A DNA stretch of 16,124 nucleotides from Candidatus Helarchaeota ASGARD archaeon Hel_GB_B (GCA_005191425.1 SUPR01000078.1:1-16124), one strand, 5' to 3'; positions 1 to 15,690 are shown, numbered from the stretch's first letter. The notes: generated by a model from the sequence alone, not told the origin. Numbers and translations are program-made.

Positions 1-229
1 CATCTTTTATTAATTTCTCCGTGAAGTCGAGCATAATATTTTCGACAAATTGTTCGTCTAAATCCCGCATATAACTATAGAATTTATCTTTTCCAGGTAT
101 ATATATATAGAACCCAAGTCCCCTTGCTATTACAGTATCACATATACCACCTTTAAGTTTTCATATCTCTGACACTGCCCTTACCAGTGAATAGGTACCA
201 TTATACCAGCTCATCCTTCCATAGACCAT
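1..229 (-). pseudogene. Coding-like remnant running off the left edge, possibly URO-D/MtaA-family, interrupted by an in-frame TGA
   Basis: Manual minus-strand translation from ATG 229: MVYGRMSWYNGTYSLVRAVSEI*KLKGGICDTVIARGLGFYIYIPGKDKFYSYMRDLDEQFVENIMLDFTEKLIKD (TGA at 163-161). The part after the stop loosely resembles the GIWESAWQGFGMEFF...LAKDVFKTITDF segment of the URO-D protein at 14530-15690. The family assignment is weak. Confidence 0.35.
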
Positions 230-237
230 AGTCTTTA

Positions 238-1427
238 GTGGGTGGATTTTTCTTCGCCTTATGGCAGACTACAATGCGATTTATCGGACACCAGACGCAA
301 ATAGGGTTAATTTGCATAGGTAATCCAGATCCGAATAGTCCTGTATTGTGTACATGTAATTTTAAATTAACATTTACCAGACTTTGTAAATTATTAAATA
401 AAAATCAAATTAATACGTGGCTACTAATAGCACCGACAGGAGGAGTTAATGTATGGTGTTCTGCATGTGGTGGCGAATTCAATGCCGGATCAGTTATCAT
501 TGCTATTAAAATCTCAAGTATTGAAAAATATGTGAACCATCGGACAATTATATTACCACAATTATCAGCACCTAGAATTAATCCAAATAAGGTTAATGAA
601 ATTACAGGTTGGAAATGCGTCTGGGGGCCAGTAAATATGAATGATCTATCAGATTTTCTTAAAGGTTTACCGAATTCAATTCATAATAAAACTGAAAAAC
701 AAAGAAAAATTACATTTAAAACGAAATTTAGGCTGGAGATGGCATCTCTTTTGATATTTCCGATATTGCTGATTACTGTAATCCCATTGTCTATTATACT
801 TTATTTATTCAATCAATGGGATATGGATTCTTCAAATCTTGATCATGATACCGACACATGGATATTTTATTTTTCTATTTTGGCCAATTTTTCCGGTTCA
901 TAGAGAGACCCACAAAGTATTAATTGGTACTATTTTATTAATTTTAATTATTTCAATTTTATCATGGCTTTTTACTTCTATTTTTTAACATAAATGTTTT
1001 AAATACATCAAATTTAACAGGTATTTTAGCTATATTCAATTGATGGCCTCTTGACATCACAATTTTACTCTCAATGGGATTATTACACTATGTTGCGGAC
1101 GGAATGAGCCCAACTTTACGCTCATCTTTAGGAGATCGAAGCTTTAATAAAGGAAAAATAAAGATGACAGAACTCTGGGGGGCAAAATACCTTTTAACAG
1201 TTTATGGGCGAATAACTATGGATATTGAAAAATGTATTGGGTGCAGAACTTGTATTGATATCTGTCCAATAATAATACCTATTTTATAAAATAACAAAAT
1301 CCATTTTCAACACCCAGAGTTATGCGTTAATTGTAATACATGCGTAAACCGCTGCCCTAAAAATGCTCTCTCTTTCGAGCCCGAAACTGAAGCTACAAAA
1401 CAAGCTCTCGAAAAATTAAAAACTTAG
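238..1427 (+). pseudogene. Disrupted fused HgcAB-like gene (CdhE/HgcA-type corrinoid domain + multi-TM block + 2x[4Fe-4S] ferredoxin)
   Basis: Frame 1 (238-819) has IGNPDPNSPVL, TGGVNVWCSACGG, ILPQLSAP and GWKCVWGPV, all HgcA/CdhE-type motifs. A +1 shift near 820 gives hydrophobic IWILQILIMIPTHGYFIFLFWPIFP...LSWLFTSIF. A +1 shift in the T run at 981-986 leads into frame 3, which contains TGA 1041-1043, CIGCRTCIDICP, TAA 1287-1289, CVNCNTCVNRCP and a final TAG at 1425-1427. The true start is uncertain (GTG 238 or ATG 274). Confidence 0.88.
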
Positions 1428-1429
1428 AA

Positions 1430-1478
1430 TATTATGTAAAAACTAAAAATTAAAAATTAAAAAATAAAATATTTATTC
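1430..1478. terminator. A-rich tract between convergent genes; oligo-T on the minus strand, a likely terminator for the frhB-like gene
   Basis: TAAAAAT-type repeats (aactaaaaattaaaaattaaaaaataaaat) directly after the minus-strand stop at 1479. Archaeal terminators are oligo-U tracts. Confidence 0.35.
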
Positions 1479-2933
1479 TTATTTTTGTTGAGGAATAAGT
1501 TTTTGAATATCTATCTTATTAGTCATTACTCGAGACTCTTTGTCGATAACTCTTACTAAATATTCTTGGTCATTTTCGATTCTAGGTATTTGAAACTCTA
1601 ATTCTTCAAAGGGATACCAAACAGAAATTTTATCATTATAGCTCGCTGTCTCAAAAAATTCACTTACATGAGAAATATTTACAATTACATCTTCCATACT
1701 TCTTCCAGAAACATTAGTAAGCGTTATTGAAATAATTTTATCATTATCGATCAGTTTCGGTTTTGACATCTTAACAGCTTTAAGTTTTGCAATTGTATCT
1801 TCAAGGACAACTTCTTTTTTAGGGGCAGTTTCGACCAATTTTTTCTCAGTAATACCTTCCTCTCCTACATACCTAATAACAAATGTCCGGCGCTTCTTTA
1901 AGGTATAAAGACTAACTTTCTTTAATTTAGCTAAGAAAAGAATTGCCTTCATTGACGGGCCTTTCTCATTAACTTCAATATAACCGTTTTTTACAGCTTC
2001 ATTAAATATCTCATTCCCAAGTCCAGTCCGAATTAATACACTAGACCATCCATCAGGAGACCCCACGCTTCCAATTGATATATCAGATTTTTCAGAAGTT
2101 AAATCAATACAATAATTACAAGAGCTTGATTTAGCTATGTCTAAATCATGGACAGGAAACTCGGATATTTTGCCGTCCTTCTCTATAAAAGTAAATTTCC
2201 CTTTTTGAATAGTCATTTTTTCAACATTATTGATATCGATTCCATGATTTGCCATAAAAAGCTTTAAACTTCTATAATCGAATGAATCCATACAAAATAG
2301 CCCTAATCGGATAATATTAGCCCGCATAAACAAATTTAAAAGACCAGTTGGACTTGTTGTCATTTTATAAACAGCATCAATATTACAAGGGGTTCCTACA
2401 AAAGCAATTGACGAGTCTCCGTTCTTTATTGCTGAAATTAATGCTATCAATGTCTGAGAATGACAATAAATTGATCCGGACGATTTTAATAACTCTTCTT
2501 TTGTGTGGACAATACTTGGAAGGGGTTTCCAATTTTCTTTTGGGTCTTTCATTGTTACTATTGCCGAATCTATAAAGCCTTTATCTAACAAGAATTCAAT
2601 TAATGCAGTAACTACTCCACCATCTTGTCCTTTTATGTCTGGATTGGTAGCTCTTGCACTATAAGAAGTAATATAATCCCCAATTAATGCACTTTCAAGG
2701 GTCAATGTTCGTGGACATTGGTTATAACATACTCCGCATCCAGTACACTTACCCACTAATTTTGGTTTCCCATCAACCCATTCTAGAACATCACATGTCG
2801 CTACACATGCACCGCAATGAGTGCAGATTCCAGTATTTACTATTTCTCTGATTAATTTGCCATAACTATCCTTTGTACCCTCTAATCTTTGTTGAGCCAA
2901 ACTGAAACTGCGCTTAACTTTTTCGACACTCAT
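1479..2933 (-). CDS. Coenzyme F420 hydrogenase/dehydrogenase beta-subunit (FrhB/FdhB) family protein with N-terminal 2x[4Fe-4S] domain and an extra ~140-aa C-terminal extension
   Basis: CTHCGACVATC and CTGCGVCYNQCP ferredoxin motifs; GQDGGVVTAL, FVGTPCNIDAV, GLFCMDSF and CNYCIDLTSEKSDISIGSVGSPDGWS FrhB motifs. ATG 2933 is preferred over GTG 2942 because GTGAG forms an SD-like motif just upstream. Confidence 0.92.
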   Translation of the reverse strand: MSVEKVKRSFSLAQQRLEGTKDSYGKLIREIVNTGICTHCGACVATCDVLEWVDGKPKLVGKCTGCGVCYNQCPRTLTLESALIGDYITSYSARATNPDIKGQDGGVVTALIEFLLDKGFIDSAIVTMKDPKENWKPLPSIVHTKEELLKSSGSIYCHSQTLIALISAIKNGDSSIAFVGTPCNIDAVYKMTTSPTGLLNLFMRANIIRLGLFCMDSFDYRSLKLFMANHGIDINNVEKMTIQKGKFTFIEKDGKISEFPVHDLDIAKSSSCNYCIDLTSEKSDISIGSVGSPDGWSSVLIRTGLGNEIFNEAVKNGYIEVNEKGPSMKAILFLAKLKKVSLYTLKKRRTFVIRYVGEEGITEKKLVETAPKKEVVLEDTIAKLKAVKMSKPKLIDNDKIISITLTNVSGRSMEDVIVNISHVSEFFETASYNDKISVWYPFEELEFQIPRIENDQEYLVRVIDKESRVMTNKIDIQKLIPQQK

Positions 2934-3182
2934 AGTTCTCACTAGATAAACATATTTTTAAAATCTAGAATTTAATTGATAATGAAGTTAGTCAAATATA
3001 TAAATTTAATTTATCAATTTTTTATTAAATAAAATTTGGATTGATCTCTGAATATCCCTTTAAAAAAAATATTATTTAAAAAAAGAATTTTTTGGATGAA
3101 TTTTGGAAATATTTTTATTTAAAAAATAATATTTTGATATTATTTAAAAATTAATTATTGCATTTTTTAATATTTTTTAGAT

Positions 3183-4319
3183 TCATGGCCATTTTAAATG
3201 CTCATAACTTTTTATAATGACTTTATCAAATCCTTCGAAAAGATTTTCTATCTCTTTATTTTTTACCATCTCCAAAAACTCTTCCATCGTAGTAATAGAC
3301 CCTTTTTTCGCCGCTAAATATGCCAATCTTGCCACAGCGACCGCTTCTCTTGCTTCTTCAGGTGTAAATTCGGGATCTTTATTATTTATGATACAATCAG
3401 CAAAATGAGCATCTTCATAACCAAATGAAATTAGATAATATTTAGGAAATGAAGAATGTTCTATCTCAGGTATATAAAATTCTCCCTTTTTTGGAGCCTC
3501 TTTATGAGTTGAAAAGATTTTGACTGGTGGGTTCCAATCATGATCTTCTAAAATAGTACCCATTGTACCTTGTATCTCAATCCTATTCGTAGGAGTATGA
3601 ATTGCCGATGTTGAAACGGATACTTCCGCTATGGCGCCTTTTTTATAATGTAAAAGCACTGATGCTGTATCTTCTCCTTTATTAGATGGAGACTCTATGG
3701 TTTTTATACACCAACTTTGTGCAGACTCTACTTTATCATTAAGAAGCCAATTTATTGTTGCAAATTTATGTACTCCTTGGTCAAATAATGCACCACCACC
3801 CCCTTTATCAAATGAAAACATCCAGTGATTAGGGTCACAAAATTTTGTCGGATCATCATATGCCCCCTCGTAAGACCTAATTAAGAATACATCTCCAATT
3901 AATCCTTTTTCAATTACACCTTTAATATATTTATGCGCAGGTAAGAACCTATGATTCTCTGCTACCATAAACTTTACTCCCGCCTTTTTTGTCGCATTTA
4001 TCATCTCATCACATTCTTTTAAAGTATTTGCCATTGGCTTTTCACAAATAATATGTTTACCTGCTTTCGCTGCTTCAATGACTAAATCCTTATGAAGATA
4101 ATGTGGCACATTTATATGGACTGCATCAATATCACTATTAAGAAACTTATCAAGATCAGTAAAACCTTCGACTTTGAGTCTTTTGGCAAATTTTTGGACG
4201 CTCTTTTCTACAATGTCATATGCAGCAACAAATTTTACATTCGAATGGTTTTTTGCACCATTTATATGAAATCTTGCTGCTTGCCCAGTCCCAATTATTC
4301 CAAATTTTATATAATCCAT
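3183..4319 (-). CDS. Gfo/Idh/MocA-family NAD(P)-dependent oxidoreductase
   Basis: FGIIGTG Rossmann motif, PHYLH, GKHIICEKPMA and GGGALFDQGVH. ATG 4319 is preferred over TTG 4331. Confidence 0.93.
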   Translation of the reverse strand: MDYIKFGIIGTGQAARFHINGAKNHSNVKFVAAYDIVEKSVQKFAKRLKVEGFTDLDKFLNSDIDAVHINVPHYLHKDLVIEAAKAGKHIICEKPMANTLKECDEMINATKKAGVKFMVAENHRFLPAHKYIKGVIEKGLIGDVFLIRSYEGAYDDPTKFCDPNHWMFSFDKGGGGALFDQGVHKFATINWLLNDKVESAQSWCIKTIESPSNKGEDTASVLLHYKKGAIAEVSVSTSAIHTPTNRIEIQGTMGTILEDHDWNPPVKIFSTHKEAPKKGEFYIPEIEHSSFPKYYLISFGYEDAHFADCIINNKDPEFTPEEAREAVAVARLAYLAAKKGSITTMEEFLEMVKNKEIENLFEGFDKVIIKSYEHLKWP

Positions 4320-14529: not shown

Positions 14530-15690
14530 CTAAAGAGAAATGGGATAATTTCCAAATTCTTTTGCAGCTTCTACCATCCATTTTATATTTTCTATTTTTA
14601 CTGAATTTATCATATTGCTTGCTGATAGAATAAATCCGCCAACAGGAGCAGCTGTTTTAATTGCATACCTAACTTCTTTATAGACATCCTCTTTTGTCCC
14701 ATGAGTAAGTACAGCTCCAACATCAATATTTCCTAAAAGGCACAATTTATCCCCGACCTTTTTCTTAACATAATTTAAATCTACATTAGCTGTTGGTTCA
14801 AGGCTATGAAGTCCATCAAAACCCGATTCAACAATATAATCTAATAAAGGCATTATATTTCCATCAGTATGTAAAATAATTTTACCACCTCTTGAATGTA
14901 CCGCTTCAGTTAATCGCTGATAGCATGGGACCAATAACTCATGAAAAATTTTGGGGCTCATCATTGGACCAGTTTTAAAAGCTAAATCCTCGGATTCAAC
15001 AAAAACTTTAGCACCTGCATCCATATATGACATATAACAACTAATAGTAAAGTCAGTTATGGTCTTAAAGACATCTTTAGCTAAAGGTCGATTGCCATAC
15101 AATTGTTTTACAAAAAATTCCATTCCAAATCCCTGCCAAGCAGATTCCCAAATCCCTTGAATATCATTAATAACAAAAACTATGGTCTGTTCTTTAAATT
15201 TTCTATTAATTTTTCTATAAAAGCGTTTAGCCATTTTTGAATATTTAGTAGCATAAATTTCCTGGATGTTTTTCTTATATTCGTACCATTTCTCAACTGA
15301 ATCAATAAGTCCACGTTTATAAAACGGATAAATATTTCCTTCATTATCTAATGCTTCAATTAATCTTCCAAAAATATCGACCATTTTATGATCATCTATG
15401 AATTTTAGAGTTAAAAAGCCAACTTGTACAAAATCGATACCCAATTTTAGAACTGCTTTTACCATACGCGTAAAAATGTCAGTTTCCATGTCTTCAACTA
15501 CATTGTTTAATTGATTTAACCAATCATTCGGAAAATCTATCTTTAACTGCTCTATTACTTCAAAATCAGATTTTGGGGGAGGCCCTAATATTTTATCTAT
15601 ATTGTTTGCATCTAAATATATTAAATGAGTTGGGACTCTATCTACATCTTCTAAATTTAATGCAGCCCATATTCTCTCAATATTATTCAT
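14530..15690 (-). CDS. Uroporphyrinogen decarboxylase (URO-D)/MtaA-CmuA superfamily protein
   Basis: MNNIERIWAAL...DRVP N-terminus, EDLAFKTGPMMSPKIF, ILHTDGNI, GFDGLHSLEP, LLGNID and APVGGFILSASN. The HemE RQAGR motif is absent. Confidence 0.9.
   Translation of the reverse strand: MNNIERIWAALNLEDVDRVPTHLIYLDANNIDKILGPPPKSDFEVIEQLKIDFPNDWLNQLNNVVEDMETDIFTRMVKAVLKLGIDFVQVGFLTLKFIDDHKMVDIFGRLIEALDNEGNIYPFYKRGLIDSVEKWYEYKKNIQEIYATKYSKMAKRFYRKINRKFKEQTIVFVINDIQGIWESAWQGFGMEFFVKQLYGNRPLAKDVFKTITDFTISCYMSYMDAGAKVFVESEDLAFKTGPMMSPKIFHELLVPCYQRLTEAVHSRGGKIILHTDGNIMPLLDYIVESGFDGLHSLEPTANVDLNYVKKKVGDKLCLLGNIDVGAVLTHGTKEDVYKEVRYAIKTAAPVGGFILSASNMINSVKIENIKWMVEAAKEFGNYPISL

What the first reader, a model, noticed from the sequence alone, without database searches (positions are those of the whole stretch)
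238..1427. Hidden, decayed fused HgcAB-like corrinoid/ferredoxin membrane protein
The ORF track splits this into two unrelated short ORFs. Removing one base near 820 (GGG run) and one at 981-986 (T6 run) and reading through TGA 1041 and TAA 1287 gives one ~395-aa protein: HgcA/CdhE-type corrinoid domain, multi-TM block, then two CxxCxxCxxxCP motifs. This is the architecture of fused HgcAB homologs. Tested examples (Pyrococcus furiosus, Methanococcoides methylutens) did not methylate mercury and their function is unknown. Four lesions plus G-to-R changes in conserved motifs (APRI for APG, CRTC for CGxC) beside error-free 1.1-1.5 kb genes suggest real pseudogenisation rather than sequencing error (inference).
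Basis: partly seen in the sequence, partly recalled or inferred. Interest (0 to 1): 0.75.

Follow-up and report, generated by a model that had tools for sequence, protein, structure and literature searches.

The report
Decayed Asgard HgcAB-like corrinoid gene
This is a genuinely dead copy of an already catalogued membrane vitamin-B12/iron-sulfur gene, a relative of the mercury-methylating enzyme whose own function is unknown, in an Asgard archaeon; it lost its front end next to a broken mobile element and then picked up frameshifts and stop codons, which is ordinary gene loss.

Summary
Window 238-1427 reads in frames 1, 2 and 3, with an extra G at 818-820, an extra T at 981-986, TGA at 1041 and TAA at 1287. 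Read through, it gives 395 residues.

Read through in two parts, it scores 245 + 60 bits against NCBIfam NF043039 (HgcAB-like fusion protein, cut-off 285). In a tree it sits in the Asgard branch of the fused-HgcAB clade, apart from canonical HgcA.

The lesions are real. Contigs from four sequencing studies and three other assemblies carry all four, across three SNP haplotypes, and one haplotype adds a further stop at 265.

- The nearest intact relative (66% identity) is a triple fusion with the partner methyltransferase CpaM.
- That part is gone here. Homology starts at 241, directly against a truncated, inactivated IS transposase relic (1-238).
- No CpaM was found in the genome.

Of the two G-to-R changes, APR hits a glycine invariant in 83 of 83 relatives. 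CRTC is normal variation.

Three of the five other members of this subclade are also interrupted, each differently.

This scan has met the intact CpaM/HgcAB-like module before (29 findings in at least 23 genomes).

Verdict: real but ordinary pseudogene, low interest.

The parts
1..238 (-). Relic of an IS element: an internal part of a DDE (IS4/IS5-type) transposase gene, cut off at 238 inside the ORF, with TGA at 161-163 where the abundant copies have TGG
   Evidence: In L030 the same stretch continues into a 323-aa ORF with Pfam DDE_Tnp_1 (E 5e-13). A 581-aa homologue in G002 aligns across position 238 into the sequence that higher-depth contigs carry beyond it (residues 213-264, E 2e-12). 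Depth is 2-5 times that of the adjoining contig, and the same continuation appears after 238 in three runs. Changes at 158, 160 and 161 in the abundant copies restore Trp-Glu. Another copy's end lies at a contig end, G000:C117.
238..239 (.). Junction between the truncated transposase relic and the truncated HgcAB-like gene, head to head; inferred to be a deletion end point
   Evidence: IS homology ends at 238. Homology to the HgcA part of the intact relative starts at 241, which is residue 247 of 652. The same junction is present in L030, L136 and L137.
238..819 (+). Frame 1: corrinoid-binding (CdhD/HgcA-type) domain and first membrane helix, residues 1-194
   Evidence: Pfam PF03599 E 2e-20. 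NF043039 scores 230 bits on profile positions 3-179. 66% identity to G004 residues 247-439. Hydropathy.
265..267 (+). CAG here; TAG (a further stop) in a sister haplotype
   Evidence: C to T at 265 in L030 and in contigs of runs X1, X2 and X3.
448..474 (+). Cap-helix motif NVWCSACGG; the Asn, Trp and cobalt-facing Cys are kept
   Evidence: Asn, Trp and Cys are invariant in 83 of 83 relatives. The second Cys is typical of the Asgard clade (15 of 83). Ser at the next position is rare (1 of 83). All.
574..576 (+). AGA (Arg) in place of a family-invariant Gly in the QLxAxG motif
   Evidence: Gly in 83 of 83 relatives.
818..820 (+). GGG run holding one extra G: first +1 frameshift, between membrane helices 1 and 2
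   Evidence: No indel at this place in any contig laid on it or in L030, L136 and L137.
821..982 (+). Frame 2: membrane helices 2 and 3, residues 195-248
   Evidence: 43% identity to G004 residues 433-491 in frame 2. With this segment added, NF043039 coverage extends to profile position 232. Hydropathy.
981..986 (+). T6 run holding one extra T: second +1 frameshift
   Evidence: Reproduced.
984..1427 (+). Frame 3: last membrane helix, linker and ferredoxin-like tail with two CxxCxxCxxxCP motifs (1233-1268, 1323-1358); natural stop TAG at 1425-1427
   Evidence: 51% identity to G004 residues 480-640. NF043039 scores 60.4 bits on profile positions 242-350. Fer4 families.
1041..1043 (+). In-frame TGA at a position that is Trp in the three closest relatives
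   Evidence: The column never holds Cys in the family. Neighbouring genes end in TGA.
1092..1094 (+). GTT (Val) at a position that is Asp or Glu in all 80 relatives aligned there
1287..1289 (+). In-frame TAA between the two Fe-S motifs
   Evidence: The column holds Asp or Asn in most relatives.

Best explanation
Window 238-1427 is a recently inactivated pseudogene of the HgcAB-like fusion family, belonging to an Asgard subclade in which the intact gene is a single CpaM (SAM methyltransferase) + corrinoid domain + membrane helices + 2x[4Fe-4S] ferredoxin protein.

What the ancestral module did (inferred from domain content and from the near-constant CpaM partnership, tested by nobody): it moved a methyl group from SAM through protein-bound cob(I)amide to an unknown acceptor at the membrane. 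The ferredoxin tail would re-reduce the cofactor.

How the copy was lost here:
1. An IS element of the IS4/IS5 type landed upstream.
2. A deletion then joined the inside of its transposase gene to the first codons of the corrinoid domain (junction 238|239). This removed the CpaM part together with the original start and promoter.
3. Two single-base insertions in short homopolymers, a TGG-to-TGA change, a TAA, and missense changes at invariant positions (Gly to Arg, Asp to Val, Ala to Thr) followed.

Shown: family membership, every lesion, their presence in several assemblies, the truncated IS relic, and that no CpaM was found in the genome.
Inferred: the order of events, that one deletion made the junction, and the ancestral chemistry.
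For: Family:
- NF043039 scores 230-245 bits on the N part and 60 on the tail (sum about 305, cut-off 285), against 144 for HgcA and 93 for CdhE.
- The sequence is sister to, or in one clade with, G004's intact 652-aa CpaM-HgcAB fusion (SH-aLRT 100; six-member clade 100/100). That clade lies inside the fused clade and apart from nine canonical HgcA sequences.

Lesions:
-.
- No indel or substitution at any lesion in contigs of four runs from four studies.
- L030, L136 and L137 are identical at all four lesions while differing at six other sites, so there are three haplotypes.

Relaxed constraint:
- An extra polymorphic stop at 265.
- Six variable sites in 1189 bp of the relic against two in 3476 bp of flanking genes (Fisher p 0.005).
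- Terminal branch 0.39-0.40 against 0.15-0.17 for G004.
- 31-42 private substitutions against 16-25 for G004, with eleven outgroups.
- 23 of 150 clade-invariant positions changed, against 5-6 in the two intact members.

Loss of the front end:
- Homology begins at residue 247 of the intact relative.
- CpaM is adjacent or fused in 75 of 84 HgcAB-like family loci, after removing four canonical HgcA loci and reclassifying overlapping ORFs that the script listed as 'elsewhere'; three more loci are cut too short to tell.
- No CpaM above cut-off in the 93.7%-complete genome (best 51 bits against 180).

IS relic.
Against: - The N-terminal ORF (221 aa from GTG 238, or 209 aa from ATG 274) is open in every haplotype, so some residual product cannot be excluded.
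- The protein-level decay is mild: only 3 departures at the 42 most conserved family columns, where intact members have a median of 1.
- The rate comparisons are confounded by the very low G+C content (27.8%) and by the window being a lone lineage in its clade.
- The assemblies may partly derive from the same sampling campaigns, and all read evidence is from contigs, not raw reads.
- The genome is a 182-contig MAG, so CpaM could lie on an unbinned contig.
- The single-deletion scenario is only the simplest reading of the junction.
Confidence: 0.88

Rival explanations
1. A stand-alone corrinoid protein survives. The still-open N-terminal ORF (209-221 aa, corrinoid domain plus one membrane helix) is expressed and useful on its own, and only the membrane and ferredoxin part is dead.
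For: The ORF is open in all three haplotypes. The polymorphic stop at 265 lies upstream of the in-frame ATG at 274, so a 209-aa ORF remains. The cap-helix Asn, Trp and Cys are kept. Of the four changes in this part that do not make a stop, three are silent.
Against: - The family-invariant Gly (83 of 83) in this very domain is Arg.
- The original start, promoter and CpaM partner are gone.
- All six variable sites of the relic lie in this part.
- No family member found has this truncated architecture as an intact gene.
- The ORF ends in 27 out-of-frame residues.
Confidence: 0.07
2. The gene is intact and is read by recoding or RNA processing: TGA as selenocysteine or Trp, programmed frameshifts, or tRNA-type (bulge-helix-bulge) introns such as earlier notes report in other genes of this genome.
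For: Stop-codon recoding (Sec, Pyl) is published for some Asgard lineages (PMC9723677, abstract seen). Earlier notes of this scan describe BHB introns in dnaG, RFC and an acyl-CoA dehydrogenase gene of this genome. A second clade member (L133) also has TGA at a Trp position.
Against: - Four lesions of three kinds would each need their own mechanism.
- TAA is not among the stop codons reported as recoded in Asgard archaea (TGA as Sec, TAG as Pyl; PMC9723677).
- The TGA columns never hold Cys in 83 relatives.
- Neighbouring genes end in TGA and TAA.
- There is no inserted stretch relative to the relatives, only single extra bases, so there is nothing for a splicing endonuclease to remove.
- The lesions are not shared by the closest relatives.
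Confidence: 0.02
3. Assembly or sequencing artefact: the real gene is intact, and homopolymer miscalls and chimeric joining at the contig end created the picture.
For: Both frameshifts sit in homopolymers. The window is the first 16 kb of a MAG contig that starts in a repeat. Logan contigs break at 209-238.
Against: - The lesions are identical in contigs of four runs from four studies and in three further assemblies that differ at other sites.
- Two lesions are substitutions.
- 155 similar homopolymer runs in the intact neighbours show no shift.
- The JGI contig L030 runs unbroken from tetR through the IS relic into the relic gene.
Confidence: 0.02

Closest known systems
HgcAB-like fusion protein (NCBIfam NF043039) with its partner CpaM, corrinoid protein-associated methyltransferase (NF043040); the 'fused HgcAB' clade of Podar et al. 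2015, Gilmour et al. 2018 (PMC5893877) and Lin et al. 2023 (10.1101/2022.11.21.517362), which includes Lokiarchaeota and Thorarchaeota
   Same: Same domain order: corrinoid domain, membrane helices, two Fe-S motifs. The cap-helix Asn-Val-Trp-Cys is kept. It is the best HMM match and the tree places the sequence there. The closest intact relative (G004, 66% and 51% identity in the two main parts) scores 359 bits.
   Different: Interrupted by two frameshifts and two stops. It lacks the CpaM gene or domain and its own 5' end. An invariant Gly is replaced. It passes the family cut-off only when read through.
Canonical mercury-methylating HgcA/HgcB (NF040863, NF040864)
   Same: Homologous corrinoid domain with the cap-helix Cys, membrane helices and a 2x[4Fe-4S] partner.
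   Different: 144 bits against a 275 cut-off. The cap helix reads NVWCSACGG, not N(V/I)WCA(A/G)GK. The ferredoxin is fused, not a separate gene. The sequence lies in a different, well-separated clade. Canonical loci have no CpaM upstream. Cultured carriers of the fused type did not make methylmercury.
CdhE/AcsC, gamma subunit of acetyl-CoA decarbonylase/synthase (PRK04165, Pfam PF03599)
   Same: Shares the C-terminal corrinoid-binding fold region (93 bits).
   Different: Far below the cut-off (306). The true CdhE of this genome is a separate, intact 490-aa gene on contig C160.
IS4/IS5-type insertion sequences with DDE_Tnp_1 transposases (for window 1-238)
   Same: Pfam PF01609 on the longer copy in L030. 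It is multi-copy by depth, and further copies or relics lie at contig ends and elsewhere in the genome.
   Different: This copy lacks about 200 N-terminal codons of the transposase and one end of the element, and it carries a stop. The terminal inverted repeats and the IS family were not determined.

Membership tests
HgcAB-like fusion protein (NF043039) | Score over the curated whole-protein cut-off (285 bits) | tested here: inconclusive
   As encoded, the best ORF gives 230 bits, below the cut-off. Read through in two parts it gives 245 + 60.4, about 305 bits, over profile positions 3-232 and 242-350. This is a rough sum, so the sequence is a member by descent, not as a working gene.
HgcAB-like fusion protein (NF043039) | Corrinoid domain with cap helix G-(I/V)-N-V-W-C | tested here: met
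   GVNVWC at 442-459. Asn, Trp and Cys are invariant in 83 of 83 relatives. PF03599 E 2e-20.
HgcAB-like fusion protein (NF043039) | Membrane-helix block followed by a fused ferredoxin tail with two Cys motifs | tested here: met
   Hydropathy segments at about residues 168-190, 195-218 and 226-248, with a likely fourth. CIGCRTCIDICP and CVNCNTCVNRCP are present.
HgcAB-like fusion protein (NF043039) | One uninterrupted reading frame | tested here: not met
   Two +1 frameshifts, TGA and TAA, reproduced in other assemblies.
HgcAB-like fusion protein (NF043039) | CpaM methyltransferase (NF043040) directly upstream or fused | tested here: not met
   An IS relic lies upstream, with no match to CpaM in window 1-237. 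The best CpaM-model hit in the genome is 51 bits against a cut-off of 180. The partner is adjacent or fused in 75 of 84 HgcAB-like family loci, after removing four canonical HgcA loci and reclassifying overlapping ORFs that the script listed as 'elsewhere'.
HgcAB-like fusion protein (NF043039) | Placement inside the fused clade in a tree that includes canonical HgcA and CdhE | tested here: met
   The sequence lies in a 13-row Asgard clade (SH-aLRT 98) within the 84-row fused clade. Canonical HgcA forms a separate 9-row clade (99). The careful subtree supports the six-member clade at 100/100.
Canonical HgcA (NF040863), mercury methylation | Score over 275 bits, cap helix N(V/I)WCA(A/G)GK, and a separate hgcB gene | tested here: not met
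   143.5 bits. The cap helix is NVWCSACGG. The ferredoxin is fused.
Canonical HgcA (NF040863), mercury methylation | Methylmercury production | not testable with these tools
   Cultured carriers of the fused type did not methylate Hg (PMC5893877). This copy is broken in any case.
CdhE/AcsC (PRK04165) | Score over 306 bits and the full 450-aa architecture | tested here: not met
   93 bits on the last 120 profile positions only.
IS4/IS5-type insertion sequence (window 1-238) | DDE transposase, multiple copies, defined ends with inverted repeats | tested here: inconclusive
   The DDE_Tnp_1 domain is on the longer copy. Depth is 2-5 times that of the flank. One end is defined at about L030:771 by comparison with G000:C117. 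The other end, the inverted repeats and target duplications were not seen.

The most novel reading that the evidence does not exclude
The CpaM-HgcAB-like module may be decaying in parallel across a whole Asgard subclade. Four of its six known copies are interrupted, each at a different site by a different lesion:
- the window;
- L133, with TGA at a conserved Trp;
- L134, with a frameshift in a (GA)n run;
- L135, with a frameshift in a G run.

If real, selection on the module was relaxed clade-wide. Comparing genomes with intact and broken copies could then show which genes are co-lost, and so point to the still unknown substrate of the HgcAB-like family.
Probability: 0.35. Interest if true: 0.45.

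Novelty: new member of a known kind. Interest (0 to 1): 0.25.

Why it matters
The practical value is mainly in annotation. Surveys that count hgcA-like genes in metagenomes to estimate mercury-methylation potential could pick up the intact-looking 209-221-aa corrinoid ORF, although it is a remnant of a non-methylating paralogue.

It also gives a dated snapshot of the 'extensive loss' that Lin et al. infer for this gene family. An IS-associated deletion removed the partner methyltransferase, and point lesions followed.

If the parallel interruptions in sister lineages are real, they form a natural loss series. That series could help find what the functionally unknown CpaM/HgcAB-like module is used for.

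Tried and rejected
- RNA evidence: no RNA holder was listed among the public runs, so nothing can be said about expression.
- Other copies of window 1-238: none found in the genome's own assembly or in 40 relatives by DNA search. The repeat showed up only through depth and through the transposase protein.
- Synteny with the same-genus genome G001: only the FrhB-like gene is shared. Both flanks differ and no relic is present, so it gives no empty-site evidence.
- A single-reference read-through using four-letter words failed, because the words recur in frame. I scored the two parts separately instead.
- tetR link: a TetR gene lies beyond the IS relic in L030, on the same strand as the relic gene. 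TetR genes precede cpaM in 12 of 88 loci, but not in the closest relatives. The idea that the IS replaced cpaM inside a tetR-cpaM-hgcAB operon therefore stays a weak inference. The TetR stretch itself is not in this MAG.
- BHB intron, Sec or Pyl recoding, and programmed frameshifting were considered and rejected (see rival explanations).
- Literature search for 'CpaM' or the NCBIfam names found no relevant paper.
- The departure counts and relative-rate counts point towards relaxation but are confounded by tree shape and base composition, so I use them only as supporting evidence.

Full report
**Observation**

Translating window 238-1430 in three frames shows one protein-like reading that moves from frame 1 to frame 2 to frame 3. 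The nearest intact relative is a 652-aa protein in genome G004 of the same order (L014:745-2700, P0001). tblastn with it gives collinear, gap-free matches:
- window 241-819 in frame 1: 66% identity to residues 247-439;
- window 794-976 in frame 2: 43% identity;
- window 942-1418 in frame 3: 51% identity to residues 480-640.

Counting residues across the joins places each shift exactly:
- One extra G lies in the GGG run at 818-820. Reading QW|IW matches LWFW in the relative.
- One extra T lies in the T6 run at 981-986. Reading SI|FN keeps the 24-residue spacing to the next conserved Asn.
- TGA 1041-1043 aligns with Trp in the three closest relatives.
- TAA 1287-1289 lies between the two Fe-S motifs.

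The read-through product has 395 residues.

**What it is**

- The N-terminal ORF matches Pfam CdhD (PF03599, E 2e-20).
- It matches NCBIfam NF043039 'HgcAB-like fusion protein' at 230 bits. Canonical HgcA gives 145 bits and CdhE 94.
- Read through in two parts, the family score is 245 bits (profile 3-232) plus 60.4 bits (profile 242-350). The sum is about 305, against a cut-off of 285. The intact G004 protein scores 359.
- Hydropathy shows three clear membrane segments and a likely fourth.
- Both CxxCxxCxxxCP motifs are present.

I built a 98-row tree containing CdhE of this genome, nine canonical HgcA sequences (five of them fetched for this purpose), a Lokiarchaeial paralogue group and 84 family members. 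In it the window is sister to G004 (SH-aLRT 100). Both sit in a 13-row clade of Promethearchaeota and Odinarchaeota sequences (98), which lies inside the fused clade and well apart from canonical HgcA.

The literature agrees with this placement. Lin et al. place Lokiarchaeota and Thorarchaeota in the fused-HgcAB subtree (10.1101/2022.11.21.517362). Methanococcoides methylutens and Pyrococcus furiosus, both with fused genes, did not produce methylmercury (PMC5893877).

**Are the lesions real?**

The window is the start of contig C161 of a 3.54-Mb, 182-contig MAG that is 93.7% complete. Sixteen public runs hold part of the stretch. They come from hydrothermal-vent and marine-sediment metagenomes.

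- Contigs of four runs from four studies, laid on window 1-1600, show no insertion or deletion anywhere and no substitution at any of the four lesions.
- A JGI contig (L030, Ga0190360_1006160) is 99.84% identical over window 1-3726 and has all four lesions.
- So do L136 (Ga0366834_1007013) and L137 (JBQSIZ010000147.1).

These sequences fall into three haplotypes:
- the window;
- L030 with runs X1-X3, differing at 265, 630, 646 and 649;
- L136 and L137 with run X4, differing at 348 and 401.

The lesions therefore predate the split of these haplotypes and cannot be an error of one assembly. The L030 haplotype adds a fifth lesion, CAG to TAG at 265-267.

Eleven neighbouring ORFs are intact although they hold 155 comparable homopolymer runs. 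They end in TAA (7), TGA (3) and TAG (1), so no stop codon is reassigned.

Caveats: all of this is contig evidence, not raw reads, and some assemblies may share samples.

The closest relative is a triple fusion. Residues 1-224 match NF043040, 'corrinoid protein-associated methyltransferase CpaM', at 259 bits (cut-off 180).

An HMM built from the Asgard CpaM sequences finds this methyltransferase directly upstream of, or fused to, the gene in 75 of 84 HgcAB-like family loci from bacteria and archaea. This count removes four canonical HgcA loci and reclassifies overlapping ORFs that the script listed as 'elsewhere'; three more loci are cut too short to tell. The pairing is already catalogued by NCBI, and earlier notes of this scan describe it in at least 23 genomes.

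In the window, homology starts at 241, which is residue 247 of the relative. Nothing in 1-237 resembles CpaM. The best CpaM-model hit in the whole MAG is a generic methyltransferase at 51 bits. No second HgcA-like gene exists in the MAG apart from the true CdhE on contig C160.

**The left flank**

- Contigs covering window 1-238 have 2-5 times the depth of the contig carrying the relic gene. In three runs they continue after 238 with one and the same different sequence. The long single-copy contig of run X1 starts at 209.
- On the minus strand, 1-238 encodes part of a DDE transposase. In L030 it continues into a 323-aa ORF with Pfam DDE_Tnp_1.
- A 581-aa homologue in genome G002 (45% identity) aligns with residues 213-264 across position 238 into the 'other' continuation: YPDDLM | LKTMVYG.
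- So the copy beside the relic gene is cut inside the transposase ORF and lacks about 200 N-terminal codons.
- It also has TGA at 161-163. The abundant copies have TGG, matching the Trp-Glu of the G002 protein.
- The L030 haplotype has, in addition, a 2-bp change in the (TA)n run at 98-99.
- Another copy's end sits at the end of contig C117 with a different flank. This fixes one IS end near L030:771.

Two truncated genes thus meet head to head at 238|239. The simplest reading is one deletion running from inside an inserted IS to the first codons of the corrinoid domain. This is an inference.

In L030 an intact TetR gene lies beyond the relic on the same strand as the relic gene. TetR genes precede cpaM in 12 of 88 loci, but not in the closest relatives, so I treat the operon reconstruction as weak.

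**How decayed is it?**

- Of 42 family columns that are at least 90% conserved, the window departs at three: Val46Phe, Gly113Arg and Ala367Thr. Intact members have a median of one departure.
- Gly113, in the motif QLxAxG, is Gly in 83 of 83 relatives.
- Asp285Val hits a position that is acidic in all 80 aligned relatives.
That position is Arg in 9 and Gly in only 18 of 83 intact relatives.
- Within the six-member subclade, the window departs at 23 of 150 positions where the other five agree. The two intact members depart at 5-6.
- Its terminal branch is 0.39-0.40, against 0.15-0.17 for G004.
- It has 31-42 private substitutions against 16-25 for G004 with each of eleven outgroups.
- Six variable sites lie in the 1189-bp relic, against two in 3476 bp of flanking genes (p 0.005).

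All of this points to relaxed constraint, but base composition and tree shape confound the rate measures. The picture is of a recent pseudogene.

**Alternatives**

- Recoding. Sec and Pyl recoding is known in some Asgard lineages (PMC9723677), and earlier notes report tRNA-type introns in other genes of this genome. I reject these here for four reasons. There is no inserted stretch, only single extra bases. The TGA columns never hold Cys. TAA is not among the stop codons reported as recoded in Asgard archaea. The relatives do not share the sites.
- A surviving stand-alone corrinoid ORF (209-221 aa) cannot be excluded. It is made unlikely by the Gly-to-Arg change, the loss of start, promoter and partner, and the fact that all polymorphism of the relic lies in it.

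**Distribution**

- Of the seven species-level genomes of the order, only G004 has an intact family member. The same-genus genome G001 has none.
- A protein search found the truncated 209-aa ORF in other assemblies. It also found three more relatives annotated as 'CpaM' of 365-428 aa, each followed by a ferredoxin ORF.
- Inspection shows these are the same triple fusion, interrupted in different ways:
  - L133 by TGA at the conserved Trp of ITGW(Q/K)CVWGPV;
  - L134 by a frameshift in a (GA)n run;
  - L135 by a frameshift in a G run. Its truncated ORF is on record on three contigs.
- With the window, G004 and a JGI fragment, they form one clade (100/100). Four of the six copies are therefore broken, each differently. 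I could not check reads for the three extra cases.

**Verdict**

The finding is a correctly recognised, real pseudogene of a known, functionally uncharacterised family. It matters for annotation, and as a small natural loss series. It does not reveal a new kind of system.

Noticed in passing
L133:4090-4130; L134:4070-4135; L135:4255-4310: Three more members of the same six-member Asgard subclade (CpaM-HgcAB triple fusions) are interrupted, each differently. L133 has an in-frame TGA at a Trp conserved in 70 of 83 relatives. L134 has a frameshift in a (GA)n run. L135 has a single-base frameshift in a G run within the first membrane helix. Public annotation calls the front halves 'CpaM'.
   Followed up: partly
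window 1-238; L030:771-1879; G000:C117:1-296: The contig starts in a multi-copy IS4/IS5-type element whose full transposase is about 580 aa in a relative (G002:C81). The copy here is truncated and carries a stop. MAG contigs C161 and C117 both end in it.
   Followed up: yes
L017:1771-3426 (-), L018:745-2403, L019:1768-3444 (-), L113:2221-3900: A separate Lokiarchaeial group of 552-560-aa proteins fuses a CpaM-like methyltransferase (125 bits, below the cut-off) to an HgcA-like corrinoid/membrane part without the ferredoxin tail. It scores equally (179 bits) against the HgcA and HgcAB-like models, below both cut-offs, and forms its own clade near the base of the tree. A separate ferredoxin ORF follows in L019.
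   Followed up: partly
alignment of 84 family members, column of window residue 335 (window 1242-1244): The second Cys of the first Fe-S motif is present in only 35 of 83 family members (Ala in 19, Val in 12). Many HgcAB-like proteins may therefore bind only one complete [4Fe-4S] cluster. The Asgard clade, including this relic, keeps all four Cys.
   Followed up: no
L030:115-741: An intact TetR-family regulator gene lies just beyond the IS relic, on the same strand as the relic gene. It may be an orphaned regulator of the lost module. The stretch is not in this MAG's assembly.
   Followed up: partly
L133:5635-6363; L014:2704-3255: Downstream of the CpaM-HgcAB gene, L133 encodes an ICMT/PEMT-type membrane methyltransferase. 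G004 has a 184-aa membrane protein at the same relative place. I did not check whether the two are homologous.
   Followed up: no
window 14530-15690 (-): An intact URO-D family gene (Pfam PF01208, matching residues 188-378 only) lies on the same contig. I did not examine it further.
   Followed up: no
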